Below, one piece after another: positions 2,241 through 60,251 of a stretch of DNA of 62,386 nucleotides. The translations under genes were made by a program, and so were the position numbers. The stretch covers positions 1-62,386 of the forward strand of contig CAYTSO010000004.1 of assembly GCA_964440545.1 (NCBI GenBank). The letters are read 5' to 3'. The notes under the pieces were generated by a model, which saw only the letters and a program-made list of their open reading frames with translations, had not been told where the DNA came from and ran no database searches. The DNA is from an uncultured Candidatus Saccharibacteria bacterium. GTDB lineage: Bacteria; Patescibacteriota; Minisyncoccia; Phycocordibacterales; UBA9973. Position 1 is the first letter of the stretch; every line of letters begins with the position of its first letter.

Positions 2241-2486
2241 TTAATCTAAGTGAACAACTTTAATTTTCCAAACTTTATTTTTATTTTTGCGAGTTCCGGC
2301 TATTGGTTTTTCCCCGGATTTTATTTTTTTAATTATATTTTCAATATCCTCCAGATTGTAAACACGGTAATTATTAATTGGATGTCGAAAAGCAACTAGT
2401 TTCCCCGAATTATCCCAGTTGCGCAAGGTTAATTTTGAAACGTTCAGAATTTCTGCTGCCTCCTTAATTGTGATAAATTTTTGCAT
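2241..2486 (-). CDS. Small MerR/excisionase-type helix-turn-helix DNA-binding protein
   Basis: This is ORF 2241..2507. The motif ITIKEAAEILNVSKLTLRNWDNSGKL is present. The track start is TTG; in-frame ATGs lie at 2492 and 2486. A TATATT box (2495-2500) sits 8 nt upstream of ATG 2486. Confidence 0.6.
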   Translation of the reverse strand: MQKFITIKEAAEILNVSKLTLRNWDNSGKLVAFRHPINNYRVYNLEDIENIIKKIKSGEKPIAGTRKNKNKVWKIKVVHLD

Positions 2487-2617
2487 AACCATATAATATA
2501 CTAACAAACATTGATAAGCAATACTAGTAATAAGTATTAATGTTTATTATGCATTAATATTGTTATTCTGCAAAAGATAAATTTGTGTTAAATATTACAG
2601 GAGAGTATAATCATAAT

Positions 2618-6582: not shown

Positions 6583-7433
6583 TGAATAAAGTAATTGTAA
6601 TTCTTGGTCAAACGGCTACCGGTAAGAGTGATTTGGCGGTAAAATTGGCCAAAAAACTAAATGGCGAGGTTATTTCTGCAGATTCAAGACAAGTTTATAA
6701 AGGTCTAGATATTGGAACGGGTAAAATAACTAAAAAGGAAATGAGGGGTGTCCCCCATCACCTTCTTGATGTAGCGGGTCCCAAACATAGATTTAATGTA
6801 TCCGAATATCAAAAATTAGCCATCTCAGCGATAGCGGAGATCGTAAAAAGAGACAAAATCCCGATTATTTGCGGGGGTACTGGCTTTTATATTGATGCAA
6901 TAACCAAGGGCCTAATTTTTCCCGAAGTTCCACCTAATCAAAAACTTCGTAAACAGCTATACTCAAAATCCGCGATAGCATTATTTGAGTATCTTAAAAA
7001 AATTGATAAAAGACGCGCTAGTGATATAAAAAGAAAAAATGAGCAAAATAATAAAGTCAGATTGATTAGAGCTATCGAAATTGCTAAAGCACTAGGTAAG
7101 ATCCCCCACTTGGAAACCGAGCTTCCAAGTTATAAATTCATTAAAATTGGTTTATATCTACCTCCGGAAAAATTAAAAAAGAAAGTGGAAAAAAGAGTTA
7201 AAAAAATGTTTCAGGCAGGTTTGTTGAATGAAATAAAAAAATTAAAACGCGCCGGTATATCTGAAAAAAGATTAAAAGAATTTGGTTTCGAGTACCATAA
7301 ACCAACTCAAGAAAAGGTGATTTCAGAAACTCTTAAATATGCCAAACGACAAATGACTTGGTTCAAACGAGACAAGGAAATAAGGTGGTTTACTGATCCT
7401 AAAAAAGCATTTAGTGCGTTGAAAAAGGATTAA
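6582..7433 (+). CDS. miaA: tRNA dimethylallyltransferase
   Basis: P-loop GQTATGKS; ISADSRQVYKGLDIGTGK; start overlaps the murA stop. Confidence 0.9.
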   Translation: MNKVIVILGQTATGKSDLAVKLAKKLNGEVISADSRQVYKGLDIGTGKITKKEMRGVPHHLLDVAGPKHRFNVSEYQKLAISAIAEIVKRDKIPIICGGTGFYIDAITKGLIFPEVPPNQKLRKQLYSKSAIALFEYLKKIDKRRASDIKRKNEQNNKVRLIRAIEIAKALGKIPHLETELPSYKFIKIGLYLPPEKLKKKVEKRVKKMFQAGLLNEIKKLKRAGISEKRLKEFGFEYHKPTQEKVISETLKYAKRQMTWFKRDKEIRWFTDPKKAFSALKKD

Positions 7434-10525: not shown

Positions 10526-10684
10526 CTATTTTTTTACTTCCTTGTGTTTGGTCTGCTTTTTGCACCACTTGCAGTATTTCTTGAGCTCGATTTTTTTAGT
10601 AACGAGTTTCTTGTTTTTACTAGACCAGTAATTAATCCTTTTACAGGTTCCGCAGCCAAGTTTTATAAGTCTATCTTGTGACAT
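10526..10684 (-). CDS. rpmG: 50S ribosomal protein L33 (52 aa; below the ORF-track size cutoff)
   Basis: My own translation gives [52 protein letters not shown], with CxxC...CxxC. It lies next to tRNA-Trp, as in many bacteria. Confidence 0.85.
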
Positions 10685-19642: not shown

Positions 19643-20092
19643 CTATTTCCTGTATTTACGGTTGCGCCACTTATCGGCGATTTTAACACGATTGAGCGAA
19701 CGCTCAAGTTCTGCTTCAAAATGTTCAAAGTCAACGTGTTCTTTGTTCTCCATCAACTTCTTCAGCTCTTCTGCTCGCGCTTTCGCTTGCTCGATCTTCT
19801 CGTCGTGGAGCTCTGACACGTACTCTGCAAAATCAGCCAGTACCGCAACTTCGGTCTCTCCTTTTTCATTTTTTTTGACTTCAACAAAACCGCCCACCAC
19901 CGCCATGGGCACCTGCTCCCCTTTTGCAAGAGCGACTACGTCTCCTGACGTTAACCCAGCCACTAATGGGATGTGATTCGGAAGAATAGTAATTTCGCCC
20001 AAAGTCGTGGGTAAACTTACTTGATCAACCATTTCCTCTAAAACCAGTCTTTCGGGTGTTACTATTTTTAATTTTAATTGCTTGGTGCTCAT
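19643..20092 (-). CDS. atpC: F1 ATP synthase epsilon subunit
   Basis: Last gene of the atp operon; 149 aa with typical N-terminal beta-sandwich sequence. Confidence 0.9.
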   Translation of the reverse strand: MSTKQLKLKIVTPERLVLEEMVDQVSLPTTLGEITILPNHIPLVAGLTSGDVVALAKGEQVPMAVVGGFVEVKKNEKGETEVAVLADFAEYVSELHDEKIEQAKARAEELKKLMENKEHVDFEHFEAELERSLNRVKIADKWRNRKYRK

Positions 20093-33569: not shown

Positions 33570-34259
33570 TTATTTTTCTGTCGGCTTTTGTTCCTTTGCT
33601 GGGGTAGACTTTTCTTCTCCTCTGCCTTCTTCCCCTTCTTCTTCTTTCTTCCCTTTCTTTTCAACCTCAATTTCAGACAGATCAACTGGCGCAGCCTCCT
33701 CTTCCTTTTCTTCCACTTGTTCCACAATGGAAGCAACAACATCAGTCGGATTATCTACAATAGTAACCCCGGTTGGTAATTTTATATCTGAAACAAAAAT
33801 TTGATCATCTAGTGTTTCTAGTTTTGAAATATCAACAACGAGATCATGGGGCAAATCGCTTGGCAATGCTTCGATTTTAACTTCATGCAAAACCTTCACG
33901 AGATTCCCGAGCCCGTTTTTTACCGCATTAGAAATACCTTCAAAGACAAGTGGAACCTCAACTGTAATTTTCTTGGTCATGTCTATCGCTAGAAAATCAA
34001 CATGGATTGGATCCTCGGTAATCGGATCAACTTGCACTTCATGAATGAGAACATCAACTTCAGTACCTGTCGGCATATTGATTTTAATGGCGGATGATTC
34101 CCCTGCTTCTCGCCAAACCTTTTTAAATTCAGAAGTTGAAATTGAGATAGGTGTATTTTTCTTTCCTGCTCCGTAAAAAACAGCTGGAATTTCTCCAGAT
34201 TTTCTTAGGGCATTTAATTTCACACCCTCCTCCCTGTTTTTAGCTTTTATTAGAAACAT
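33570..34259 (-). CDS. rplY: 50S ribosomal protein L25/Ctc with an acidic/Lys-rich tail
   Basis: GEIPAVFYG motif. I chose ATG 34259 because TATACT lies 6 nt upstream. The track start is 34280. Confidence 0.85.
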   Translation of the reverse strand: MFLIKAKNREEGVKLNALRKSGEIPAVFYGAGKKNTPISISTSEFKKVWREAGESSAIKINMPTGTEVDVLIHEVQVDPITEDPIHVDFLAIDMTKKITVEVPLVFEGISNAVKNGLGNLVKVLHEVKIEALPSDLPHDLVVDISKLETLDDQIFVSDIKLPTGVTIVDNPTDVVASIVEQVEEKEEEAAPVDLSEIEVEKKGKKEEEGEEGRGEEKSTPAKEQKPTEK

Positions 34260-34265
34260 AAAAAT

Positions 34266-34294
34266 AGTATACCCGAACACTTATTAAAAGTCAA
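34266..34294 (-). promoter_or_regulatory. Sigma70-type promoter of rplY (leaderless candidate)
   Basis: On the minus strand: TTGACT (34294-34289), 17-nt spacer, TATACT (34271-34266), 6 nt, ATG 34259. Confidence 0.55.
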
Positions 34295-40651: not shown

Positions 40652-41635
40652 ATGGAAAACATTATTTGGATAATAATAGGAGTTGCGGGAGGGCTTGTTA
40701 CTGCTTATTTAATTTTTGGTAAAAAGGATAAAGAGAAAAACGAAACCATTCAACCTCTTTTATTACTTCAGCAACAAATGTCGGAACTTACCGATCGAAT
40801 AAATAAAAGCTTATTGGACGTTACACGAGAGCAAACTAAAACCAATGAGGCTACTCGGCAGTTTATAAGTATTGCTGAAAAATTAAGCGACCTAGAAAAA
40901 ACCCTAAAACACCAAAAACAACGCGGAAACTGGGGTGAGGCGTCTCTAGAGCTCATTCTTTCTAATACTTTGGCTCCAGGGCAGTATAAAATGCAATATG
41001 AATTTAAAAACGGAGAAACAGTAGACGCGGTCATCACAACCAAAGAAGGCATCATTCCAATTGACGCGAAATTTTCATTGGATAATTATGACCGAGTAGT
41101 ACACGCAATGAATGATCGACAGCGAGAGGAATTAGAAAAAGAATTCAAGAATGACTTAAAAAGAAGAATTGACGAGACAGCTAAATATGTTCGGCCGGAA
41201 GAAGGAACACTTCCCTTCGCATTTATGTACATTCCAGCAGAAGCAATTTATTATGATCTTTTAGTCAACGAGGTTGGGGCAATAAAAGTAAACACCCGAA
41301 ATTTAATTGATTACGCTTATAATGATAAAAAGGTCATCATTATTTCTCCAACTACCTTTATGGCATATTTGCAATCAATACTTTATGGATTTAAAGCTTT
41401 TAAAATAGAAGAGTCAGCAAAAGAAATCATTAAAAGGGTGGAAGAATTGGGAAAACATTTAAAGGCATATGATGAATATCACAACAAACTCGGGAACGCC
41501 TTGGGTACTGTGGTTAACCACTACAATTCCTCAAATAAAGAATTAAAAAAAATAGACAAGGACGTCCTACGTATCGCAGGCTCCTCGCCCGAACTTTCTC
41601 TTCTTGAAATTGAAAAACCCGGGTTTGAAGAATAA
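40652..41635 (+). CDS. rmuC: DNA recombination protein RmuC
   Basis: N-terminal TM helix and coiled coil, with a RmuC core (PFAFMYIPAEAIYYD). Confidence 0.85.
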   Translation: MENIIWIIIGVAGGLVTAYLIFGKKDKEKNETIQPLLLLQQQMSELTDRINKSLLDVTREQTKTNEATRQFISIAEKLSDLEKTLKHQKQRGNWGEASLELILSNTLAPGQYKMQYEFKNGETVDAVITTKEGIIPIDAKFSLDNYDRVVHAMNDRQREELEKEFKNDLKRRIDETAKYVRPEEGTLPFAFMYIPAEAIYYDLLVNEVGAIKVNTRNLIDYAYNDKKVIIISPTTFMAYLQSILYGFKAFKIEESAKEIIKRVEELGKHLKAYDEYHNKLGNALGTVVNHYNSSNKELKKIDKDVLRIAGSSPELSLLEIEKPGFEE

Positions 41636-41661
41636 AATAAAAATGTTATATTTTTTGTACT

Positions 41662-41736
41662 GGCCCTATCGTCTAACGGTTAGGACGTATCCTTCTCAAG
41701 GATAAAATCAGAGTTCGATTCTCTGTAGGGTCACCA
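41662..41736 (+). tRNA. tRNA-Glu(CUC) with encoded CCA
   Basis: GGCCCTATCGTCTAACGGTTAGGACGTATCCTTCTCAAGGATA...TAGGGTCACCA. Anticodon loop TTCTCAA. Confidence 0.9.
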
Positions 41737-41814
41737 GCCGAAATGTTTGCGAGTAACGACGAGTAAATTATCGTGGTCAATGTTAACTTCACTCTTCACA
41801 TAAAATAACCTAAA

Positions 41815-41842
41815 TTGACAAATCATTTTTTAAATGTATAAT
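41815..41842 (+). promoter_or_regulatory. Consensus sigma70 promoter of cassette 2
   Basis: TTGACA (41815-41820), 16-nt spacer, TATAAT (41837-41842). Confidence 0.6.
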
Positions 41843-41893
41843 TAACACGTAAGCTTATCAACTCGTTTTGTACTTTGTTAAAAGGAGGATCGC

Positions 41894-42058
41894 GTGAATA
41901 AATATGACGAACAGATTCTTGTGCTCAATAAACTTAAGGAAAGGGTCAAGAAGCAACTTTATTCTTGCCCCAGCGAAAAAGAGTTCGTTTTGCTTCTCTC
42001 TCTTTTCAGAGAGCACCTCAAAGAGCACGATGATCAGTCCGTAGAAAGGAGGTCATAA
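41894..42058 (+). CDS. Orphan small protein (54 aa, predicted helical hairpin), GC-rich cassette
   Basis: AAAGGAGG (41881-41888), 5 nt, GTG 41894. My own translation gives MNKYDEQILVLNKLKERVKKQLYSCPSEKEFVLLLSLFREHLKEHDDQSVERRS. Its stop overlaps the next start (TAATG). Confidence 0.45.
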   Translation: MNKYDEQILVLNKLKERVKKQLYSCPSEKEFVLLLSLFREHLKEHDDQSVERRS

Positions 42059-42237
42059 TGGCGACCATAATGAGCCAGGTAAAAATATTTAGGGAGCCCA
42101 CCCTTCTCGAAATGCAAGTGGCAATAAACAGATGGCTCCAGGAAGCCGAGGCAATCGGCGTCAAGATCATCTGCACCGACCTTTGTTTCTCAGAGAACCA
42201 ACCCATCATCGCTGTTTTCTACAGCCGGGATGAGTAA
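42058..42237 (+). CDS. Orphan small protein (59 aa), GC-rich cassette
   Basis: AGGAGG 6 nt upstream. MATIMSQVKIFREPTLLEMQVAINRWLQEAEAIGVKIICTDLCFSENQPIIAVFYSRDE. I counted 88/180 G+C. Confidence 0.55.
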   Translation: MATIMSQVKIFREPTLLEMQVAINRWLQEAEAIGVKIICTDLCFSENQPIIAVFYSRDE

Positions 42238-42247
42238 TAAATCTACA

Positions 42248-42272
42248 AGAGCCCCACCAGGGGCTCTTTTTT
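42248..42272 (+). terminator. Intrinsic terminator of cassette 2
   Basis: AGAGCCCC-ACCA-GGGGCTCT followed by TTTTTT. Confidence 0.75.
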
Positions 42273-42302
42273 GTTTATTTTCAACAAATTAATTACAGCA
42301 GA

Positions 42303-42923
42303 TTATCTCACCAAATAAATCTTCAGCCAAATCATAAAAAGAAGAATTAAAAACACAACCAGAATAGCCAAAATCTTCTGTTTTGAATTAGATATATTTG
42401 CCCTTGGTCTCATTTGACTGTCGAACATTTTAATACCTCGAGCTGTCATTTTTTCTTTCATGATTTTGCTAATTTTATGATCTATATGTCCCGCTTTCAG
42501 CATTTCAATGAAAATGGGATACCGTGTAATATAGTTATGGGGATTTCTTAAATAATCCATGGCCGTTCTTGCTACTATTTCTGTATTGGTGTATTCATCA
42601 ACCAAATAATCAACTGCTCCTAGTTTTATGCCCATCTCGATGTCCTCGATCTTACTTTTTCTGTTTTCAAAAATAATTGGGATATTTTTTGTTCGAACGT
42701 CGGCCTTTAACAAACCTAGGGCCATAAAACCATCCCTCCCCGGTAAAACAATGTAAAGATAAATTAAATCTGGCATAATTTTTACCACTTTTCCAACAAA
42801 ATCATCATTGGCATCCTCTAGGGAAAAGACGTCAAAATTTTCCTGTCTCAATCGAAGCGCATAGCTTTCTAGTGAAAAACTATAGCTGCAGATAAAAAGA
42901 ATCTTTTTCTTTTTTCTTCTCAT
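42303..42923 (-). CDS. Pseudo-receiver (CheY-like) domain protein with a C-terminal TM anchor
   Basis: The receiver fold is recognisable (PDLIYLYIVLPGRDG, GAVDYLV). The acidic pocket, phospho-Asp, Thr and Lys positions are all substituted. The C-terminus has the TM helix ILAILVVFLILLFMIWLKIYL. Confidence 0.7.
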   Translation of the reverse strand: MRRKKKKILFICSYSFSLESYALRLRQENFDVFSLEDANDDFVGKVVKIMPDLIYLYIVLPGRDGFMALGLLKADVRTKNIPIIFENRKSKIEDIEMGIKLGAVDYLVDEYTNTEIVARTAMDYLRNPHNYITRYPIFIEMLKAGHIDHKISKIMKEKMTARGIKMFDSQMRPRANISNSKQKILAILVVFLILLFMIWLKIYLVR

Positions 42924-42942
42924 GCTTTAATTATATCACTAC

Positions 42943-42972
42943 AAAAAAAGAAAAGCCCCGATCAATCGGGGC
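42943..42972 (-). terminator. Intrinsic terminator of cassette 3
   Basis: GCCCCGAT/ATCGGGGC stem (42955-42972) followed on the minus strand by a T-rich run. Confidence 0.65.
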
Positions 42973-42979
42973 AATCATA

Positions 42980-43192
42980 TTATTTATCACGTCTTCCCAG
43001 AGGAGGTTTATCTTTTCCTTCTCTATCAGAGCTCTCTTCTCTTTTCTCAATTTTTTTTCCTGCTTCCTCGCAGTCGGAACAAAAAGCAGGATATTTCCCA
43101 ACAAGCTCTTTAAAACGCCTGTTGCACCCGTAACAAAACCCTCTCTGGTTGCTCATTTTCAAGTTCCTCCTTATGAAATAGTAAGCGTCCAT
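42980..43192 (-). CDS. Orphan small zinc-ribbon protein (70 aa, or 58 aa from ATG 43156), GC-rich cassette
   Basis: CYGC...CSDC motifs. Both candidate starts have SD sites: AAGGAG plus 7 nt for 43192, and AGGAGG plus 9 nt for 43156. Confidence 0.5.
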   Translation of the reverse strand: MDAYYFIRRNLKMSNQRGFCYGCNRRFKELVGKYPAFCSDCEEAGKKIEKREESSDREGKDKPPLGRRDK

Positions 43193-43289
43193 GCTTTTTC
43201 TCCTTTGTACAAATAATTGCCGAGATAAATAATAAAAAAATATGCAAAAAAAATCAACTCCTACTTTTGTATGTTATGATATAAGTATT

Positions 43290-43721
43290 ATGAAAGATAA
43301 AATAATTAAACTTAGTATGCTCAAGGAATTTAAACAATTCCTGCTCAGAGGAAATGTTATTGACCTAGCAGTCGGTGTGGTAATCGGTACAGCTTTTGGA
43401 ACAGTGGTCAATTCTCTTGTAACAGACCTCTTGACCCCGTTTATTTCGGCCGTAGCCAAGATTCCGGATTTCAGCGGGCTTTCTTTTACAATTAACGGCG
43501 GTAAATTTATGTTAGGCCACTTTCTGAATGCGCTTATCTCGTTTGTTCTCGTCGCGGCAACAATTTTTTATTTTATTATCAAACCAATTAATCTACTAAT
43601 TGCGAAAACTAAAAAAGAACCGCCCCTAGATCCAACAACCCGTAAATGTCCAGAATGTTTGAGTGAAATACCTATTGCTGCCAAGCGCTGTTCCTTTTGC
43701 ACTCAAATTGTTTCAGAATAG
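43290..43721 (+). CDS. mscL: Large-conductance mechanosensitive channel with a C-terminal zinc ribbon
   Basis: LKEFKQFLLRGNVIDLAVGVVIGTAFG; C-terminal CPECLSEIPIAAKRCSFC. The start is uncertain (43242, 43290 or 43317). Confidence 0.85.
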   Translation: MKDKIIKLSMLKEFKQFLLRGNVIDLAVGVVIGTAFGTVVNSLVTDLLTPFISAVAKIPDFSGLSFTINGGKFMLGHFLNALISFVLVAATIFYFIIKPINLLIAKTKKEPPLDPTTRKCPECLSEIPIAAKRCSFCTQIVSE

Positions 43722-43728
43722 TTTACTC

Positions 43729-43757
43729 TTGACAGGCATATCTATATATGATATAAT
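43729..43757 (+). promoter_or_regulatory. Perfect consensus sigma70 promoter with an extended -10 (cassette 4)
   Basis: TTGACA (43729-43734), 17-nt spacer ending in TGa, TATAAT (43752-43757). It begins 8 nt after the mscL stop. Confidence 0.7.
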
Positions 43758-43783
43758 ACCAAAATACAGAAAAGGAGGAAGAA

Positions 43784-43951
43784 ATGGACTGGCGTGAAAG
43801 AAACCTGTTCCGTGAGCTCTTGAGGGAAAACCTCGAGATGCTCGAGATCCTAAGGTCCGGAATTCCGGACAAGAAAAAGATCGAAAAAATCTCGGAGATC
43901 CTCGAGGCCTTAACCAAGGGTGTAGAGATCACCGAGGTCGACGAGGGGTAG
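43784..43951 (+). CDS. Orphan small protein (55 aa, predicted helical hairpin), GC-rich cassette
   Basis: AGGAGG (43773-43778), 5 nt, ATG. MDWRERNLFRELLRENLEMLEILRSGIPDKKKIEKISEILEALTKGVEITEVDEG. I counted 86/168 G+C. Confidence 0.55.
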   Translation: MDWRERNLFRELLRENLEMLEILRSGIPDKKKIEKISEILEALTKGVEITEVDEG

Positions 43952-43980
43952 AACCCCCCACATCATCATCAAAATATTGA

Positions 43981-44010
43981 AACCCGCTTCGGCGGGTTTT
44001 ATTTTTTATT
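43981..44010 (+). terminator. Intrinsic terminator of cassette 4
   Basis: AACCCGC-TTCG-GCGGGTT followed by a T-run. Confidence 0.75.
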
Positions 44011-44019
44011 TTATTTTGT

Positions 44020-44055
44020 AAAAAAAATCCCCCGCTTCATGATTATGAAGCGGGG
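44020..44055 (-). terminator. Intrinsic terminator of cassette 5 (the hairpin loop contains the stop codon)
   Basis: CCCCGCTTCAT/ATGAAGCGGGG 11-bp stem (44030-44055) followed by a T-run on the minus strand. Confidence 0.65.
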
Positions 44056-44456
44056 TACATATTGATAAGGTTCTCACGTTTTTCGCGAACCTCTTCTTCT
44101 CTTTTTTTCTCCTCGAACTCAATGGCTCGAGGATCCGGCCCATTCGGCCAAATGACGAGTGTCACGTTGCTCTTTCTAACAACGTAATAATCGCATTTGC
44201 CGACTCCGGGAGCTGGCCCCTGGCACTTGAACTCATCCAGGGCAATGAATTCCATGCTGGAGCCTGGAATCGTACGAGACGACTGGGAAATCTCGCGTAG
44301 GGGCGCCTTGTCTTTGTTGAAGATCATCGTAATCCTCAACCGACCATTACTGGCCTCAGAGAATGTCGCCTCTACCTCATCGGCGCATCCATATCTGATT
44401 ATCCGAACACGAGCCCCGTGCTCAAGAAGCAGTGGCTTCATTTCAAGTGGCAACAT
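44043..44456 (-). CDS. Orphan protein (137 aa), GC-rich cassette
   Basis: AGGAGG (44464-44469), 7 nt, ATG 44456. Own promoter and terminator. I recognised no motif. Confidence 0.6.
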   Translation of the reverse strand: MLPLEMKPLLLEHGARVRIIRYGCADEVEATFSEASNGRLRITMIFNKDKAPLREISQSSRTIPGSSMEFIALDEFKCQGPAPGVGKCDYYVVRKSNVTLVIWPNGPDPRAIEFEEKKREEEVREKRENLINMYPAS

Positions 44457-44521
44457 GGTTTGTCCTCCTTTCCCAATATGGGAGATTTTATATTTAAAAA
44501 GCCAAGGTACGACTTATTTCG

Positions 44522-44549
44522 ATTATAACAATTTTAATGCTTTTGTCAA
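44522..44549 (-). promoter_or_regulatory. Consensus sigma70 promoter with an extended -10 (cassette 5)
   Basis: On the minus strand: TTGACA (44549-44544), 16-nt spacer ending in TGt, TATAAT (44527-44522). Confidence 0.65.
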
Positions 44550-44591
44550 CTTGACGTTGTTCATTAATTGGATAAAAGCTATACTCACCAG

Positions 44592-44840
44592 GTGAAGAAA
44601 AAAGCTAAAAAAATCTTAATTTTAATCACTGGAATTATTTTTATGATAATTGGATTGGCCGGTCTGGCGCTTCCCTTTCTACAAGGCATCCTTTTTTTGA
44701 TTATTGGTTTCTTTTTGGTATCTTTTTGTTTTCCTAAATTCCGTTCCTGGATAAATAAACAATCTCAAAGACACCCCTATTCATTTAAAGCAATACAAAA
44801 AGCAGAAAGATGGATGGAAAAAATCTTTGGAGAAATTTAG
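44592..44840 (+). CDS. Small two-TM membrane protein (YbaN/DUF454-like)
   Basis: GLAGLALPFLQGILFLIIGFFLVSF. I chose GTG 44592 because TATACT (44580-44585) lies 6 nt upstream. The track start is TTG 44568. Confidence 0.5.
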   Translation: MKKKAKKILILITGIIFMIIGLAGLALPFLQGILFLIIGFFLVSFCFPKFRSWINKQSQRHPYSFKAIQKAERWMEKIFGEI

Positions 44841-44849
44841 TTTTCTTAT

Positions 44850-44878
44850 TTGACTATTGTCCATATATTTGTCAAGAT
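44850..44878 (+). promoter_or_regulatory. Sigma70-type promoter with an extended -10 (cassette 6)
   Basis: TTGACT (44850-44855), 17-nt spacer ending in TGt, CAAGAT (44873-44878). Confidence 0.4.
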
Positions 44879-44929
44879 TATTATGGGTGCCAGGTTTTGT
44901 ACCTTGGAAAAATAGAAAGGAGGTGGCGC

Positions 44930-45112
44930 ATGTCACCAGACTTTGAATTTCAGAAAGAGCAGCAAGAAGCAAAGAAAGTACTGGTAAGGCTGGTCGAACT
45001 TTTTTCGAGCATGCGTCCCCCAAACAACAGAAGGACCCTCGTAGAGATTCTACAAGAGCAGGCTCAGATGGTCGAGAAAGAAATGGGGGCCAAAAAAGAT
45101 GATAGTGAGTAA
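44930..45112 (+). CDS. Orphan small protein (60 aa, predicted helical hairpin), GC-rich cassette
   Basis: AGGAGG (44918-44923), 6 nt, ATG 44930. MSPDFEFQKEQQEAKKVLVRLVELFSSMRPPNNRRTLVEILQEQAQMVEKEMGAKKDDSE. Confidence 0.5.
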   Translation: MSPDFEFQKEQQEAKKVLVRLVELFSSMRPPNNRRTLVEILQEQAQMVEKEMGAKKDDSE

Positions 45113-45115
45113 TCG

Positions 45116-45143
45116 GGGTTCGCTTAAGCGAACCCTTTTTTTT
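45116..45143. terminator. Bidirectional intrinsic terminator (cassette 6 and murF)
   Basis: GGGTTCGC-TTAA-GCGAACCC followed by a T-run. Confidence 0.7.
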
Positions 45144-46464
45144 ATTTTATATTTTTCCACTCTTCATCTTGGCGAACCAAGAGTTTTTCCTTATTTTTTT
45201 GATCCAGAAGAATCATTTCCACTATTCGTTCCATTCGCATGCCTTGTGAGCCTTTCACTAAAATTATATCGTCTTTTTGAACAAAGTTTTTTATAAAATT
45301 TCCAGCTTCTTGAGAATTTAAAAATTCAAAAATATTTTTTTCTTCCATCCCTGCCTCTACCGCTCCTTCTTTTATTGATTTTGCTCTGGGTCCGACAATA
45401 ACAATATAATCAGCTTTATCTTTCGCTATTTTCCCAATATTTTTATGCGCCTCAACTGTATGTTTACCAAGCTCTAACATATCTCCCAAGACAGCAATTC
45501 TTCTGCCCTTTAGCTTAATTTCCTTTAAAGTATTAAGCGCGGATTCGCAAGCCAGAGGAGAAGAATTATAGGTGTCATCTATAATAAAGGTTTCTTTTAT
45601 CCCCTTCAAAAGTCGCATCCTTCCTGAAGGTACGTCATAATTTTTTAGAGAATTTATCGCTGTCACCATATTCAATTTTAGACCAGAAGACAAGGCAAGA
45701 GCAGCGAGTGAGGCATACACATGATTTCTACCGAACACTCCCTCAATAACAACAGGCAGGCTATTTCCTTCTTCATCTGCTCTAAAAATTATTCCAATTG
45801 GCTCTCCTGCCTCATTATAGGAGATTGATTCCCCAGAACCTAAAATATCTGCTCCTTCGCTAAACCCATAAGTAATTAGACGATGTTTGCTTTTTGCCTT
45901 CATGCCAAGCACAACCGGATCGTCAGCGTTCAAAACTAAAAGTCCGTCCGGTTTTAGGGTTTTTATAAGTTGACTTTTTTCGTCTACTAAATGTTTGTAG
46001 GAATTAAAAAATTCTATATGGGGCGGGGTTTCTCCAATCGCGGTAATAATTACCGCATCTGTTTTAACCCAAGAAGCGGTTTTTTTCATATCACCTTGTT
46101 TTCCTACGCCAACCTCAAGCACAAGCCAAGTAGGATATTTATGTGGCCAAACAAAAAGCCAAAGACCTCTCAGGATATTTTCAAGCCAAATTAGTGGATT
46201 ATTCCAGCCATTTGGGCAACCAAGAATGGTCAATGGCAAGCCTATTTCACTATTAAAGCTCTTTTCGCTCTTTCGGATGTACGCCATTTTAGATAGCGCA
46301 GCGTAAACTGCATCCTTTGTTGAAGTTTTTCCGACGGATCCAGTAATTGCAATAATCTTTGGTTTATATTTCCAAAGTACTAGTTGCGATTCTATTTTAA
46401 GAATATAAGCTATTATCTTTTTAAAAATTGTTTTCATATAAATTTTATCTGTCTGGTGGAACAC
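45142..46464 (-). CDS. murF: UDP-N-acetylmuramoyl-tripeptide--D-alanyl-D-alanine ligase
   Basis: Mur ligase P-loop ITGSVGKTSTKD; 440 aa; position in the dcw cluster. Confidence 0.85.
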   Translation of the reverse strand: MFHQTDKIYMKTIFKKIIAYILKIESQLVLWKYKPKIIAITGSVGKTSTKDAVYAALSKMAYIRKSEKSFNSEIGLPLTILGCPNGWNNPLIWLENILRGLWLFVWPHKYPTWLVLEVGVGKQGDMKKTASWVKTDAVIITAIGETPPHIEFFNSYKHLVDEKSQLIKTLKPDGLLVLNADDPVVLGMKAKSKHRLITYGFSEGADILGSGESISYNEAGEPIGIIFRADEEGNSLPVVIEGVFGRNHVYASLAALALSSGLKLNMVTAINSLKNYDVPSGRMRLLKGIKETFIIDDTYNSSPLACESALNTLKEIKLKGRRIAVLGDMLELGKHTVEAHKNIGKIAKDKADYIVIVGPRAKSIKEGAVEAGMEEKNIFEFLNSQEAGNFIKNFVQKDDIILVKGSQGMRMERIVEMILLDQKNKEKLLVRQDEEWKNIK

Positions 46465-49975: not shown

Positions 49976-50113
49976 ATGTTTATGTTCGTTGTAACTATGG
50001 GTGTGTTCTTTTTGGCAACCAAGGCCTTGACGACCTTTGTGATTTTTGCCGGAGTAATCGTGTGGAAAATTGGTTTTGATATCCTTGGGGTTGACCACGA
50101 TTCCCCTATCTAA
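49976..50113 (+). CDS. Orphan 45-aa hydrophobic (two-TM-like) micro-protein
   Basis: AAAGGAG, then 7 nt, then ATG 49976. MFMFVVTMGVFFLATKALTTFVIFAGVIVWKIGFDILGVDHDSPI. Confidence 0.45.
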   Translation: MFMFVVTMGVFFLATKALTTFVIFAGVIVWKIGFDILGVDHDSPI

Positions 50114-50125
50114 GGAGGTAATGTG

Positions 50126-50317
50126 ATGGTACTAGAGATAATTTGGCCCACGAAGAGGTTCTTTAATTCAGCGCAGGTTGCGAAGCTTCTCGGAAAACCA
50201 GTAAACCCAGAGAACGCTTTCCGACCCGAGATTCTTCAGATTCGGGGAGGAAACGACGAGGACATCAAAATTTTAACAGACCCCGAAAACGGGTTCAGGG
50301 TGAAAAAAGTCACCTAG
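50126..50317 (+). CDS. Orphan 63-aa protein (possible small HTH: FFNSAQVAKLLGKP)
   Basis: AGGAGG (50113-50118) overlaps the upstream stop, then 7 nt, then ATG 50126. The track start is GTG 50123. Confidence 0.5.
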   Translation: MVLEIIWPTKRFFNSAQVAKLLGKPVNPENAFRPEILQIRGGNDEDIKILTDPENGFRVKKVT

Positions 50318-50329
50318 AAAGGGGGCAGA

Positions 50330-50449
50330 ATGGTATGGTTTCTACTTGGCGTGCTAGTTGTTTTCATTCTAGCCGCCATCGCAGAAAAGCAAGGCAAAGC
50401 AACAGAAACGGGGGCGTACGATACCCCCCTGATTGACTTCGAAAAGTAA
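50330..50449 (+). CDS. Orphan 39-aa single-TM micro-protein
   Basis: AAAGGGGG, then 4 nt, then ATG 50330. MVWFLLGVLVVFILAAIAEKQGKATETGAYDTPLIDFEK. Confidence 0.4.
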   Translation: MVWFLLGVLVVFILAAIAEKQGKATETGAYDTPLIDFEK

Positions 50450-50461
50450 ATATTGTAAATT
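50433..50461 (+). promoter_or_regulatory. Candidate internal sigma70 promoter placing a TSS at the first base of hairpin 1
   Basis: TTGACT (50433-50438), 17-nt spacer, TAAATT (50456-50461). Position +7 is 50468. Confidence 0.4.
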
Positions 50462-50467
50462 CTTTCT

Positions 50468-50539
50468 GTGGGGAATCCCGCACCAAGATGGGGCGAGTAC
50501 GGACAGCGTCCGTGACGATTCTATCGCGGGATTCCCCAC
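50468..50539 (+). repeat. Inverted repeat / hairpin 1
   Basis: GTGGGGAATCCCGC (50468-50481) and GCGGGATTCCCCAC (50526-50539) are perfect reverse complements. An inner hairpin ACGGAC-AGC-GTCCGT is present. Confidence 0.9.
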
Positions 50540-50559
50540 GCCAATGTTCCTTCCCTTGT

Positions 50560-50627
50560 GCGGGGAATCCTGGAATCATACGGGCCTTGTTCCCCCCAAG
50601 GTCCCCCCGGGTTCTGGGATTCCCCGC
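50560..50627 (+). repeat. Inverted repeat / hairpin 2
   Basis: GCGGGGAATCC (50560-50570) and GGATTCCCCGC (50617-50627) are perfect reverse complements. An inner helix GGGCCTTG/CAAGG(T)CCC is present. Confidence 0.9.
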
Positions 50628-50665
50628 TCCAACGCTCTTATTCAGAGCTAAATCTAAAAATAAAC

Positions 50666-50690
50666 GCCTCGCTTTTGCGAGGCTTTTTTT
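50666..50690 (+). terminator. Intrinsic terminator of cassette 7 / the hairpin RNA
   Basis: GCCTCGC-TTTT-GCGAGGC followed by TTTTTTT. Confidence 0.75.
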
Positions 50691-50709
50691 ATTTATATAT
50701 CACATAAAA

Positions 50710-56879: not shown

Positions 56880-56926
56880 AGGCCTCACGAAGCATGTTGC
56901 TCCGCGAGGCCTGATTTTTTATTTTT
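56880..56926. terminator. Intrinsic terminator shared by ftsZ (+) and cassette 8 (-)
   Basis: AGGCCTC...GAGGCCT extended hairpin (56880-56912) followed by a T-run. Confidence 0.7.
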
Positions 56927-57176
56927 TCGCTTTACTCCTTCTTCTCCCGAGCCCACCTTGGCTTTTGGGACACTGGCAGATGCCAGCGATGTGGAGCCGT
57001 CCGCCAGCGACCCAATATGGAAATTTTGGTTTGTCATTGCCACTCTTCCGTGGCTCAGAGTCACCCTTGGGAGAAAAATGCCTCTGCAGAACCAACTCGC
57101 CATAGCTCAGTCTCTCCGCCATTCTTCTTCCTCCTTCTCCAAACCAGCTTACCTCCTCTGTTAAAGCGTATAACAT
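56919..57176 (-). CDS. Orphan basic small protein (85 aa, or 67 aa from ATG 57122), GC-rich cassette
   Basis: SD AAGGGGGA plus 5 nt for ATG 57176, and GGAGG plus 7 nt for ATG 57122. ...MAERLSYGELVLQRHFSPKGD...CQCPKSQGGLGRRRSKAKK. Confidence 0.5.
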   Translation of the reverse strand: MLYALTEEVSWFGEGGRRMAERLSYGELVLQRHFSPKGDSEPRKSGNDKPKFPYWVAGGRLHIAGICQCPKSQGGLGRRRSKAKK

Positions 57177-57258
57177 TGTGATCCCCCTTTCCGTGAATCC
57201 ATATATTAACACGCCCCGCAGGACGAGAGATTTAAAAGAACGAAATATATTAGCCAAT

Positions 57259-57287
57259 ATCTTAACAAAAAAATGGCCTTTTGTCAA
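57259..57287 (-). promoter_or_regulatory. Sigma70 promoter with an extended -10 (cassette 8)
   Basis: On the minus strand: TTGACA (57287-57282), 17-nt spacer ending in TGt, TAAGAT (57264-57259). Confidence 0.55.
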
Positions 57288-59661: not shown

Positions 59662-59694
59662 AAAAAGAAAAGTCTCGATTCAAAGAACCGAGAC
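59662..59694 (-). terminator. Intrinsic terminator of cassette 9
   Basis: On the minus strand, GTCTCGGTTCTTTGAATCGAGAC is followed by TTTTCTTTTT. Confidence 0.6.
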
Positions 59695-59717
59695 ACAGAT
59701 TTTTTTTGCCTACAAAT

Positions 59718-59927
59718 TTATCCCGGAAGCACTTCCGCGGAAATACCCTTCTGAGCAAAGAACTCTTCGATGTCCTCCCTGCTTGTGCCGACAATCGACA
59801 CAACTGGGGGCTGTTGCCTCCAGCTGATCTCTACTAAGCCCCTTAAGAGACCCCTTCTTTTCAGCTCGGCAACAAGCCAAGTTATTTGATTTGGGGTGCA
59901 ATTCAGTATTCGAATCCTCATTTCCAT
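59718..59927 (-). CDS. Orphan small protein (69 aa), GC-rich cassette, second gene
   Basis: GAGGGGG, then 4 nt, then ATG 59927. MEMRIRILNCTPNQITWLVAELKRRGLLRGLVEISWRQQPPVVSIVGTSREDIEEFFAQKGISAEVLPG. Confidence 0.5.
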   Translation of the reverse strand: MEMRIRILNCTPNQITWLVAELKRRGLLRGLVEISWRQQPPVVSIVGTSREDIEEFFAQKGISAEVLPG

Positions 59928-59944
59928 CTTACCCCCTCTTTTGG

Positions 59945-60157
59945 TTAAAGCGTGAGATATTCCGCGTTTATCCCGGACAAGGCCAGGAACGGCGCCACGT
60001 CCGCAAACAATGCATCTTTTACCCGGACGATCCTATTCTTTTCGTCCTCTACCATTACCTCCTTTCCGTACAAAATCCGTCGAGTTTGATCTACAACGGA
60101 CTTGAAGGAATCCTTGTTGCCACCACCCGAACTTACCTTAATCAAAAGATCTGCCAT
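59945..60157 (-). CDS. Orphan small protein (70 aa), GC-rich cassette, first gene
   Basis: GGAGG, then 6 nt, then ATG 60157. MADLLIKVSSGGGNKDSFKSVVDQTRRILYGKEVMVEDEKNRIVRVKDALFADVAPFLALSGINAEYLTL. Confidence 0.5.
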   Translation of the reverse strand: MADLLIKVSSGGGNKDSFKSVVDQTRRILYGKEVMVEDEKNRIVRVKDALFADVAPFLALSGINAEYLTL

Positions 60158-60174
60158 GCCTCACCTCCAGGTAA

Positions 60175-60203
60175 TTTTTATCACACAAAAACTGCTTGGT
60201 CAA
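60175..60203 (-). promoter_or_regulatory. Sigma70-type promoter with an extended -10 (cassette 9)
   Basis: On the minus strand: TTGACC (60203-60198), 17-nt spacer ending in TGa, TAAAAA (60180-60175). Confidence 0.4.
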
Positions 60204-60251
60204 GGATATTTTGTTTGTTAATTTCAATTATATTTTTTATAATCGTTTTGT

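What the first reader, a model, noticed from the sequence alone, without database searches (positions are those of the whole stretch)
41737..45143. tRNA-Glu-adjacent mosaic: five GC-rich, self-contained small-ORF cassettes interleaved with native genes
Between tRNA-Glu(CUC) (ends 41736) and murF, three AT-rich native-looking genes alternate with five compact units. The native genes are the pseudo-receiver, mscL and the YbaN-like gene. The units lie at 41815-42272, 42943-43192, 43729-44010, 44020-44549 and 44850-45143.

Hand counts give 51% GC (86/168, 43784-43951) and 49% GC (88/180, 42058-42237). That compares with 28% (17/60, 42303-42362) and 38% (23/60, 6582-6641) in native genes. The cassettes use GC-rich codons (CTC, GAG, GTC, CGG). 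Each has an AAAGGAGG-type SD and its own GC-rich hairpin plus T-run terminator, and most have a TTGACA-N16/17-(TGn)TATAAT promoter. They sit within 4-10 nt of neighbouring stop codons.

This is the architecture of phage 'morons', meaning autonomous accessory cassettes. However, the window contains no integrase, transposase or phage structural gene. Four more units of the same style occur at 19.5, 50.0, 57.0 and 59.9 kb, the last beside tRNA-Glu(UUC). None of the encoded proteins (39-137 aa) is recognisable to me. Taken together, they may form an undescribed accessory gene system, for example addiction, defence, anti-defence or host-interaction factors.
Basis: partly seen in the sequence, partly recalled or inferred. 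Interest (0 to 1): 0.75.

Follow-up and report, generated by a model that had tools for sequence, protein, structure and literature searches.

The report
Small orphan gene cassettes beside tRNA-Glu
Next to a tRNA gene in an uncultured ultra-small (Nomurabacteria) bacterium lies a variable spot holding five self-contained mini-genes of unknown function whose codon usage and translation signals differ sharply from the rest of the genome; they are probably imported or fast-evolving accessory genes, not a coordinated system.

Summary
Between tRNA-Glu(CUC) and murF, five compact units (six small ORFs, 54-137 aa) alternate with three resident genes.

- **Expression signals:** each unit has its own promoter, a full AAGGAGG Shine-Dalgarno (SD) site and an intrinsic terminator. 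All three perfect promoters in the 62 kb window lie here.
- **Codon usage:** GC3 (GC at third codon positions) is 0.49-0.75, against 0.31±0.04 for 56 native genes. Unit B is the exception at 0.34.
- **Translation signals (new here):** native genes are almost all SD-less and often leaderless. The cassettes therefore differ from them in translation signals as well.
- **Comparative context:** the organism is a Candidatus Nomurabacteria (Patescibacteria). In 17 relatives with tRNA-Glu in this orientation, the gap from murF to its 3' end ranges from 18 bp to 7.1 kb with unrelated content, so this is a clade-wide hot spot.
- **Closest genome:** it keeps murF-ybaN-mscL-receiver in order but has none of the cassettes.
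- **Homologs:** all cassette proteins are orphans. D has one 37-41% homolog, in an identical cassette directly downstream of murF in another relative.
- **Negative searches:** no phage, plasmid, defence or Pfam similarity, no integrase, and no att repeats.

Best reading: independently gained, strongly expressed accessory small genes, probably from GC-richer Patescibacteria. There is no evidence that they work together. Interest is moderate.

The parts
41662..41736 (+). tRNA-Glu(CUC). Its 3' end faces the variable zone. It is conserved next to rmuC in relatives.
   Evidence: ARAGORN and Rfam. The same tRNA lies between murF and rmuC in relatives.
41815..42275 (+). Cassette A. Perfect promoter at 41815-41842. 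A1 (54 aa) at 41894-42058 and A2 (59 aa) at 42058-42237 are translationally coupled by a TAATG overlap. Terminator at 42247-42268 plus a T-run.
   Evidence: GC3 is 0.49 and 0.65. Both have AAGGAGG(T) SD sites. Both are singleton clusters.
42303..42923 (-). Resident receiver-domain protein with a C-terminal TM helix and native codon usage. A TGnTATAAT box lies 6 nt upstream of the ATG, so the transcript is leaderless-type.
   Evidence: Pfam Response_reg, E = 6e-8. 64% ortholog in L004. -10 box.
42945..43192 (-). Cassette B. 58-aa CxxC...CxxC zinc-ribbon protein at 42980-43156 with a Lys/Glu-rich tail. Terminator at 42972-42955. Codon usage is native-like.
   Evidence: codon-fit rank 4 of 96. 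Only sub-threshold zinc-ribbon hits.
43242..43721 (+). Resident mscL with a C-terminal zinc ribbon. The likely start is at 43317.
   Evidence: Pfam MscL, E = 6e-35. 77% ortholog in L004, adjacent to ybaN.
43729..44010 (+). Cassette C. Perfect extended promoter at 43729-43757. 55-aa acidic helical ORF at 43784-43951. Terminator at 43978-44001.
   Evidence: GC3 0.75. mRNA folding z = -3.7. 9 palindromic hexamers against 2.2 expected.
44022..44549 (-). Cassette D. Perfect promoter at 44549-44522. 137-aa ORF at 44043-44456. The terminator hairpin at 44055-44030 contains the stop codon.
   Evidence: GC3 0.56. One homolog, P0010, at 37-41% identity in an identical cassette downstream of murF. CDS folding z = -5.4.
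44592..44840 (+). Resident YbaN/DUF454-like membrane protein with native codon usage. A TATACT box lies 6 nt upstream of the GTG start.
   Evidence: Pfam DUF454 hit below the curated cutoff. 57% ortholog in L004, 15 bp from mscL and 41 bp from murF.
44857..45143 (+). Cassette E. Weak promoter (TTGTCC-N16-TATTAT). 60-aa charged helical ORF at 44930-45112. The terminator at 45115-45136 abuts the murF stop codon.
   Evidence: GC3 0.49. AAGGAGGT SD site.
45142..46464 (-). murF, the conserved anchor on the far side of the hot spot. It is the last gene of the mraZ-mraW-ftsL-ftsI-murF cluster.
   Evidence: Pfam Mur ligase domains. Synteny in about 30 relatives.
50100..50449 (+). Unit F. F1 (64 aa) at 50123-50317 and F2 (39-aa TM peptide) at 50330-50449, divergent from mraZ.
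   Evidence: GC3 0.57 and 0.50. Small SD-led, high-GC3 ORFs occupy the same lysS|mraZ gap in L004, L005, L006, L030 and L033.
56880..57285 (-). Unit H. Promoter TTGACA-N17-TAAGAT. ORF ending at 56919, either 85 aa from 57176 or 67 aa from 57122 (the latter has a perfect AAGGAGG). Terminator at about 56880-56912.
59670..60205 (-). Unit G. Bicistronic G2 (70 aa) at 59945-60157 and G1 (69 aa) at 59718-59927, plus a terminator, beside tRNA-Glu(UUC).
   Evidence: GC3 0.56 and 0.54. Singleton clusters.

Best explanation
**What it is.** The 3.4 kb segment is this genome's version of a clade-wide insertion hot spot. The hot spot lies between the end of the cell-division/cell-wall cluster (murF) and the 3' end of tRNA-Glu(CUC)-rmuC in Candidatus Nomurabacteria.

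**Contents.** Three longer-resident genes are shared in order with the closest relative: ybaN-like, mscL and a receiver protein. Every junction between them has been filled by a self-contained small-gene expression unit.

**How each unit works (inferred from sequence).**
- It is transcribed from its own sigma-70-type promoter.
- It is translated through a full-length Shine-Dalgarno site on a 30-70 nt leader.
- It is closed by an intrinsic terminator, which also insulates the neighbouring genes.
- These signals should give strong, independent expression of small cytoplasmic proteins of 54-137 aa.

**Where the units came from (inferred).**
- The native genes are SD-less or leaderless and have GC3 about 0.31.
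- The cassettes have GC3 0.49-0.75, a shift seen in every codon class, and they carry canonical SD leaders.
- They are most likely accessory genes acquired one at a time.
- The likely sources are GC-richer Patescibacteria or their unsampled mobile DNA.
- Entry would be by integrase-independent recombination, followed by fast divergence.

**What is not known.** The functions are unknown and probably unrelated to one another. Structural hints are:
- a zinc-ribbon protein (B)
- two acidic helical proteins (C and E)
- a beta-rich domain with a charged C-terminal helix (D)
- a translationally coupled pair (A1/A2).
For: **Composition.**
- GC3 of the cassettes is 0.49-0.75, against 0.313 +/- 0.037 for natives.
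- The shift is general. C at two-fold pyrimidine-ending sites rises from 0.30 to 0.59. G at two-fold purine-ending sites rises from 0.27 to 0.54. GC at four-fold sites rises from 0.32 to 0.51.
- Highly expressed native genes stay at baseline: atpE 0.24, atpD 0.29, ftsZ 0.31, bL25 0.30.
- Pooled cassette codons fit Patescibacteria loci with GC3 of about 0.5-0.55 best, and the host genome ranks only 36th of 96. Native genes rank 1-27, mostly 1-13.

**Expression signals.**
- All three perfect promoters and the strongest terminators in the window belong to the cassettes.
- 48 of 55 native genes have no SD site. 21 of 55 have a -10 box 4-12 nt before the start codon, against 5.8% at random positions.
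- Seven of the eleven small ORFs carry a 7-8-nt AAGGAGG-core SD site (all six in the mosaic, plus F1). G2 has an 8-nt GGAGGTGA site. F2, H and G1 have GGGGG-type sites.
- Relatives are also SD-poor.

**Hot spot.**
- The distance from murF to tRNA-Glu ranges from 18 bp to 7.1 kb in the 17 relatives that carry tRNA-Glu(CUC) in the window's orientation, with unrelated gene content.
- The closest genome, L004 (MurF 80% identical), has murF, then 41 bp, ybaN, then 15 bp, mscL. It has none of the cassettes.

**Orphan status.**
- Eight of the ten small proteins looked up are singleton clusters, and two are not in the collection.
- A word-index search for D finds only D itself.
- An exhaustive search finds one real homolog of D.
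- That homolog sits in a cassette with the same anatomy directly after murF in another Nomurabacteria-like contig. The cassette is therefore inherited or moved as a unit within the clade.

**Background literature.** HGT in Patescibacteria is mostly within the phylum (PMC12455944). Orphan genes normally match host GC, and phage-derived or de novo orphans are lower in GC (PMC11293555).
Against: - No donor has been identified, and there is no mobility gene, att repeat or attC site. Acquisition is inferred from composition alone.
- The D homolog in the relative has codon GC3 (0.37) like its neighbouring murF fragment.
- Small SD-led, terminator-bounded orphan ORFs are found at the same two hot spots clade-wide, mostly with native GC3. 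The mean excess is +0.03 over 80 ORFs. This also fits native, fast-evolving genes.
- A positional counterpart of F1 in L004 is also GC3-elevated (0.59 against 0.39). Its sequence similarity to F1 is not significant. If it is nevertheless an ortholog, the elevation would have to be maintained rather than transient.
- Cassette coding sequences fold more stably than shuffled controls: D z = -5.4, C z = -3.7, mean -1.9 against -0.1 for native genes. This suggests selection on the RNA that could itself raise GC.
- Insertion cannot be polarised against deletion, because only L004 shares the ybaN-mscL backbone.
- There are no expression data.
Confidence: 0.5

Rival explanations
1. The cassettes are native, rapidly evolving small genes rather than imports. 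Their GC-rich codons, strong SD sites, 3' hairpins and internal mRNA structure are all maintained by selection for very stable, very highly translated mRNAs.
For: - The D family is present at the same murF-adjacent locus in another lineage with the same promoter, SD and terminator anatomy. Its terminator stem encodes the conserved C-terminal PAS residues.
- Both D and its homolog have significantly structured coding sequences, z = -5.4 and -3.8.
- The positional counterpart of F1 in L004 is also GC3-high.
- SD-led, terminator-bounded orphan small ORFs occur clade-wide at the same hot spots.
- B has native codon usage.
Against: - The GC shift affects G- and C-ending codons in all classes equally, as a mutational background would.
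- Other small or highly expressed native genes show no such shift: atpE 0.24, bL25 0.30.
- In relatives this gene class has on average native GC3.
- The cassettes are absent from the closest genome.
- E, A2 and G2 show no excess RNA structure.
Confidence: 0.27
2. The cassettes are phage-derived morons, or parts of a defence, anti-defence or toxin-antitoxin system left by a decayed mobile element integrated at tRNA-Glu.
For: - Moron-like anatomy.
- Position next to the 3' end of a tRNA.
- Two translationally coupled small-ORF pairs, A1/A2 and G2/G1.
- Presence/absence polymorphism between genomes.
Against: - No DNA or protein match in 50,697 phage records, and no DNA match in 72,556 plasmid records.
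- No relatives in IMG/VR for the D family, A2, G1 or H.
- No PHROG or PADLOC hit better than E = 0.02.
- No integrase, transposase or phage structural gene in the 62 kb window.
- No duplicated tRNA 3' end.
- The resident genes between the cassettes keep the order seen in L004. A single decayed element would not leave that pattern.
Confidence: 0.1
3. Some units are not protein genes but small structured RNAs, and the ORFs are incidental.
For: - C and D fold far better than shuffles.
- The 19.5 kb and 50.45 kb units really are promoter- and terminator-bounded structured RNAs.
- There is no homolog-based coding evidence for any unit except D.
Against: - Codon-position periodicity is strong. For C, GC1/GC2/GC3 are 0.52/0.27/0.75.
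- SD-to-start spacing is correct for every ORF.
- D is conserved at the protein level at 37-41% identity over its full length.
- Independent gene callers called the same ORFs.
- No Rfam family matches the region.
Confidence: 0.08

Closest known systems
Phage 'morons' (autonomous accessory transcription units in lambdoid prophages; from my own knowledge of the literature, Hendrix/Juhala 2000)
   Same: - A single small ORF, or a pair, with its own promoter and intrinsic terminator.
- Composition unlike the flanking genes.
- Inserted between conserved genes and present or absent between related genomes.
   Different: - They sit in a bacterial chromosome among housekeeping genes, not in a phage genome.
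- There is no phage homology.
- They are GC-richer than the host, whereas acquired or phage genes are usually AT-richer.
- They are distinguished from host genes by SD-led rather than leaderless translation.
tRNA-associated genomic islands, islets and 'plasticity zones'
   Same: - Located at the 3' side of a tRNA gene.
- Hypervariable in length and content across the clade (18 bp to 7.1 kb).
- Atypical composition and many orphan genes.
   Different: - No integrase and no direct repeat of the tRNA end.
- The atypical DNA is not one block. It consists of five separate units of 250-530 bp interleaved with compositionally native genes.
Integron gene cassettes
   Same: Compact, mostly orphan small ORFs packed tightly together, with composition differing from the host.
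   Different: - No IntI integrase and no attC-like sites.
- Mixed orientations, and each unit has its own promoter and terminator.
- Interleaved with resident genes.
Species-specific orphan genes (SSOGs) as surveyed in gut bacteria (PMC11293555)
   Same: Short, lineage-restricted, without viral matches, located in variable regions.
   Different: In that survey orphans match host GC, and de novo or phage-derived orphans are lower in GC. Here GC3 exceeds the host by 0.18-0.44.

Membership tests
Phage moron | Own promoter and own intrinsic terminator flanking one or a few ORFs | tested here: met
   There are perfect promoters for A, C and D, weaker ones for B and E, and five strong terminators.
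Phage moron | Embedded in a phage or prophage genome between phage genes | tested here: not met
   The flanking and window-wide genes scanned are housekeeping or uncharacterised. There are no phage, PHROG or IMG/VR matches.
Phage moron | Nucleotide composition distinct from neighbours, and presence/absence between related genomes | tested here: met
   GC3 0.49-0.75 against 0.31. Absent from L004 and from 160 other related loci.
tRNA-linked genomic island | Adjacent to the 3' end of a tRNA gene and variable among relatives | tested here: met
tRNA-linked genomic island | Tyrosine or serine integrase at the tRNA-proximal end | tested here: not met
   No integrase or recombinase domain in the region or among the window ORFs scanned.
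tRNA-linked genomic island | Direct repeat of the tRNA 3' end (attL/attR) at the far boundary | tested here: not met
   A search with up to 3 mismatches finds only the tRNA itself. No such repeat appears.
Integron cassette array | attC recombination sites (RYYYAAC...GTTRRRY) after each ORF, and an intI gene | tested here: not met
   A regex scan of 41600-45300 on both strands finds none. No integrase is present.
Type II toxin-antitoxin pair (A1/A2, G2/G1) | Two small co-oriented ORFs, overlapping or closely spaced, in one operon | tested here: met
   A1/A2 have a TAATG overlap. G2/G1 are 17 nt apart under one promoter and terminator.
Type II toxin-antitoxin pair (A1/A2, G2/G1) | Sequence membership in a known toxin or antitoxin family | tested here: not met
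   No Pfam, NCBIfam or PADLOC hit at meaningful E-values.
Type II toxin-antitoxin pair (A1/A2, G2/G1) | Toxicity of one partner neutralised by the other | not testable with these tools
   This requires expression experiments.

The most novel reading that the evidence does not exclude
In a lineage whose own genes are translated without Shine-Dalgarno sites, these SD-led, GC-rich, highly structured small-gene units form a separate translational class that can be controlled as a group. The candidate controllers are the neighbouring promoter- and terminator-bounded structured RNAs that expose C-rich or anti-SD stretches:
- the L004 lysS|mraZ RNA, with an unpaired 5' CCUCCUUUCC
- the window RNA at 50462-50698, with unpaired C-runs
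- the 19.5 kb RNA.

This would be a dedicated expression channel for mobile or accessory small proteins in CPR bacteria.
Probability: 0.1. Interest if true: 0.75.

Novelty: new variant of a known kind. Interest (0 to 1): 0.4.

Why it matters
CPR/Patescibacteria genomes are tiny and mostly uncultured, and up to half of their genes are unknown. How these organisms gain new functions is poorly understood.

This locus shows a concrete, integrase-free hot spot at murF|tRNA-Glu. Single small genes arrive or turn over there as ready-to-express units.

It also gives a simple three-part signature for finding such genes: an SD leader in an SD-less genome, GC-rich codons, and a private promoter and terminator.

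If the signature holds genome- and clade-wide, it would offer two things:
- a way to separate accessory from core small proteins in CPR metagenome-assembled genomes
- candidates for host-interaction factors.

By itself it remains a set of hypothetical proteins in a variable region.

Tried and rejected
**Known RNA families.** Rfam at gathering and E-value thresholds found only tRNAs and sub-threshold, terminator-like noise.

**Known protein families.** Pfam, NCBIfam, PHROGs and PADLOC gave nothing for any small ORF. The antisense ORFs also gave nothing.

**Phage or plasmid origin.**
- blastn against phage and plasmid records, and tblastn against phage records, found no match to any cassette. 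The single weak blastn hit falls in mscL.
- Four IMG/VR scans found nothing.

**Homologs in relatives.** tblastn against 163 related loci (1.78 Mb) found none at E < 0.08.

**D homologs.**
- The word-index search with D found only D itself.
- The profile of D plus its homolog returned only those two.

**Structure of D.**
- AlphaFold2 gave pLDDT 44 from the single sequence and 59 from a 2-sequence alignment.
- Foldseek against the PDB gave a best E-value of 0.025 and TM about 0.33 to PH/EVH1-like folds. This is too weak to use.

**Other ideas tested.**
- Shared flanking repeats or MITE-like ends among the cassettes: none found.
- Expression-driven codon bias: rejected, because atpE, atpD, ftsZ and bL25 sit at baseline GC3.
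- Palindrome enrichment as a general cassette property: only C shows it.
- Homology of C to the small ORF that converges on the D homolog: none.
- Homology of F1 and G1 to the L004 small ORFs: not significant.
- Population variation: the Logan contigs aligned are 100% identical to the window, so no dN/dS is possible.
- Polarising insertion against deletion with an outgroup: only L004 shares the ybaN-mscL adjacency.

Full report
**1.

The region 41737-45143 contains tRNA-Glu(CUC) at 41662-41736. It also contains three genes with recognisable domains:
- a receiver-domain protein at 42303-42923(-)
- mscL at 43242-43721(+)
- a DUF454/YbaN-like gene at about 44592-44840(+)

murF lies at 45142-46464(-).

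Between these genes sit six small ORFs in five units:
- A1 41894-42058 and A2 42058-42237 on the + strand, with a TAATG overlap
- B 42980-43156(-)
- C 43784-43951(+)
- D 44043-44456(-)
- E 44930-45112(+)

Per-gene statistics make the contrast sharper than overall GC does. The 56 native genes have GC3 = 0.313 +/- 0.037. The cassettes have A1 0.49, A2 0.65, C 0.75, D 0.56 and E 0.49. B is native-like at 0.34.

The only three perfect TTGACA-N16/17-TATAAT promoters in the whole 62 kb window lie here, each 40-70 nt upstream of a cassette ORF. The five best terminator hairpins of the 40-47 kb stretch close the five units.

In 40-47 kb both signal types are enriched over dinucleotide shuffles:
- promoter-like sites: 35 against 18.5 +/- 4.5
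- terminator-like sites: 17 against 6.5 +/- 2.6

In 1-20 kb the excess is much smaller: 69 against 60.6 +/- 7.5 promoter-like sites and 27 against 15.6 +/- 4.2 terminator-like sites, few of them strong.

Independent Logan assemblies of four sequencing runs carry the same junctions, with 100% identity where aligned. The mosaic is therefore not a chimera.

**2.

Of 55 native genes, 48 have no Shine-Dalgarno-like sequence. Twenty-one have a >=5/6 -10 hexamer ending 4-12 nt (mostly 6-8 nt) before the start codon, against 5.8% at random positions. These are leaderless-type transcripts. Relatives are likewise SD-poor, mostly 0-20% of large ORFs.

The small ORFs contrast with this:
- Seven of the eleven carry a 7-8-nt AAGGAGG-core match on a 30-70 nt leader: all six in the mosaic, plus F1.
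- G2 has an 8-nt GGAGGTGA match.
- F2, H and G1 use GGGGG-type sites.

The cassettes therefore differ from resident genes in codon composition, translation-initiation mode and transcription punctuation together.

**3. The codon shift is not the signature of high expression**

The shift is general:
- C at two-fold pyrimidine-ending sites rises from 0.30 to 0.59.
- G at two-fold purine-ending sites rises from 0.27 to 0.54.
- G+C at four-fold sites rises from 0.32 to 0.51.

Small or highly expressed native genes are at or below baseline: atpE 0.24, atpD 0.29, ftsZ 0.31, ribosomal protein bL25 0.30. rpmG (0.47) and atpC (0.47) are exceptions.

In a likelihood test against the synonymous-codon tables of 96 loci, native genes mostly rank their own genome 1st-13th (atpC 17th, rpmG 27th). 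The pooled cassettes rank it 36th and fit Patescibacteria loci with GC3 of about 0.5-0.55 best. B ranks it 4th.

**4. Organism and comparative context**

MurF finds about 35 Candidatus Nomurabacteria/Paceibacterota genomes at 66-80% identity. The backbone lysS-[gap]-mraZ-mraW-ftsL-ftsI-murF-[gap]-rmuC-exoX is conserved. tRNA-Glu(CUC) sits next to rmuC in most of the relatives scanned.

The distance from the murF stop codon to the tRNA's 3' end ranges from 18 bp (L026) through 0.4-3.7 kb to 7.1 kb (L030). The gene content is unrelated: msrA/B-like genes, large surface proteins, sigma factors, two-component systems and ATPases. This is a clade-wide hot spot.

The lysS|mraZ gap is a second hot spot.

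Only the closest genome, L004 (JBAYHY010000001), shares the three resident genes. Its order is murF, 41 bp, ybaN, 15 bp, mscL, an alpha/beta hydrolase, then the receiver gene. No cassette ORF is detectable there or in 1.78 Mb of related loci. Relative to L004, every junction between the resident genes is occupied in the window.

**5. Orphan status**

- Eight of the ten small proteins looked up are singleton clusters at 90% identity among about 15 billion proteins, and two are not in the collection.
- There are no Pfam, NCBIfam, PHROG or PADLOC hits.
- There are no phage or plasmid matches to any cassette and no IMG/VR relatives for four of the families.

An exhaustive phmmer search with D found one true homolog, P0010: 129 aa, 37-41% identity over the full length, E = 3e-10.

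P0010 is encoded on an 887-bp contig that begins with a Nomurabacteria-type murF 3' end. It is followed immediately by TTGACA-N17-TATAAT, AAAGGAGG, the ORF, and a terminator whose stem encodes the conserved C-terminal PAS residues with the stop codon in the loop. A convergent small ORF follows. This is the same anatomy as cassette D.

Three things follow:
- D is a real, constrained protein gene.
- The cassette persists or moves as a unit within the clade.
- It evolves much faster than MurF, whose aligned C-terminal fragment is about 79% identical (read by eye from the translations).

**6. Evidence that complicates simple import**

- The D homolog has GC3 0.37, like its murF fragment.
- SD-led, terminator-bounded small ORFs occur across relatives at about 0.5 per 10 kb. 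They are mostly singletons, often sit in the same two hot spots, and have a mean GC3 excess of only +0.03. The window's mosaic has five such ORFs in 3.4 kb (six in the whole window), with a mean excess of +0.26.
- Some relatives (L030, L033, L006, L004, L005) do carry non-homologous high-GC3 small ORFs at these spots.
- One of these is a positional counterpart of F1 in L004, although their similarity is not significant.
- Cassette coding sequences are more structured as RNA than shuffled controls. D has z = -5.4 and its homolog -3.8. C has z = -3.7. The cassette mean is -1.9, against -0.1 for seven native coding sequences.

A selective cause for GC enrichment, namely mRNA stability, therefore remains a serious rival to import.

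**7. No mobility machinery or shared ends**

- There is no integrase or transposase among the window ORFs scanned.
- There is no duplicate of the tRNA 3' end.
- There are no attC-like sites.
- There are no repeats shared between cassettes beyond the promoter and SD consensus.
- One 9-mer, GTACCTTGG, occurs only twice in the window. Both copies are in the sense 5' UTRs of D and E.

The insertion mechanism is unknown. I infer illegitimate or flank-guided recombination after DNA uptake, consistent with reports that HGT in Patescibacteria is mainly within the phylum (PMC12455944).

**8. Function**

Nothing can be assigned.
- B is a CxxC-X17-CxxC zinc ribbon with a charged tail.
- C and E are acidic or charged helical peptides.
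- A1/A2 and G2/G1 are coupled pairs without toxin-antitoxin homology.
- D models as a beta-rich domain plus a long C-terminal helix at low confidence (pLDDT 59), with no significant fold match.
- None of the mosaic proteins has an evident signal peptide or TM segment. F2 is a TM peptide.

**9. Verdict**

This is a real, well-delimited feature. It is a tRNA-adjacent, integrase-free hot spot populated by autonomous small-gene units that are compositionally and translationally foreign to an SD-less, AT-rich CPR genome.

It resembles phage morons in anatomy and genomic islets in location, but it fails the membership tests for phage moron, tRNA island, integron and toxin-antitoxin system. The idea of one 'accessory system' is not supported.

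I rate it a new variant of a known kind, of moderate interest. The most interesting open angle is the contrast between SD-led and leaderless translation, together with the neighbouring structured RNAs.

Noticed in passing
window, whole (55 native gene starts): Native genes are almost all SD-less. 48 of 55 have no SD motif. 21 of 55 have a >=5/6 -10 box ending 4-12 nt upstream of the start codon, against 5.8% at random positions, which indicates widespread leaderless mRNAs. Relatives are also SD-poor.
   Followed up: partly
It contains only a 10-codon ORF behind AAGGAGG. The sequence just after the -10 box starts CCTCCTAG. It matches no Rfam family.
   Followed up: partly
window 50433-50700 (+); L004 5835-6070 (-): A structured RNA with its own promoter lies between F2 and lysS. 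It has two tandem hairpins built on GGGGAATCCC/GGGATTCCCC (z = -8.8). L004 has a positional counterpart (z = -6.5) with an unpaired 5' CCUCCUUUCC, the complement of the cassette SD context GGAAAGGAGG. Neither matches an Rfam family.
   Followed up: partly
window 19643-20092 (-): atpC is the only gene of the ATP synthase operon with elevated GC3 (0.47, reaching 0.70 in one 90-nt segment) and an AAGGAG SD site. It may be a xenologous replacement or may share whatever pressure acts on the cassettes.
   Followed up: no
window 43784-43951 (cassette C): C has 9 palindromic hexamers against 2.2 expected (z = 4.7): CTCGAG three times, TCCGGA twice, and GAATTC, GTCGAC, GAGCTC and AGGCCT once each. It also contains a 16-nt perfect palindrome, GTCCGGAATTCCGGAC, at 43855. 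No other cassette shows this.
   Followed up: partly
window 44502-44510 (-) and 44899-44907 (+); 41869-41877 (+): GTACCTTGG occurs exactly twice in 62 kb, both times in the sense-strand 5' UTRs of D and E. A1 has the related TGTACTTTG at a similar position. It may be a shared operator or RNA motif, or it may be chance.
   Followed up: partly
window 56919-57176 (-): Unit H has two possible starts. An 85-aa form follows AAAGGGGG. A 67-aa form starts at 57122 behind a perfect AAGGAGG. GC is nearly equal at all three codon positions (0.52-0.54), so the coding status is less certain than for the others.
   Followed up: no
L011 13737-16342: In this relative the same murF|tRNA-Glu hot spot carries a 524-aa ATPase-like ORF followed by a 348-aa ORF with a GSGKT P-loop motif. 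By eye this looks like a two-gene defence-type module. It was not analysed.
   Followed up: no
window 650-1150 and 1-2240: There is a GC-rich stretch (up to 52%) with only low-complexity ORFs, upstream of a MerR/HTH_17-type 88-aa gene at 2241-2507(-). It was not examined.
   Followed up: no
window 10526-10684 (-): rpmG (ribosomal protein L33, assigned by eye from the sequence, 52 aa) has GC3 0.47, above the native range. Ribosomal protein bL25 (33570-34280) is at 0.30.
   Followed up: no
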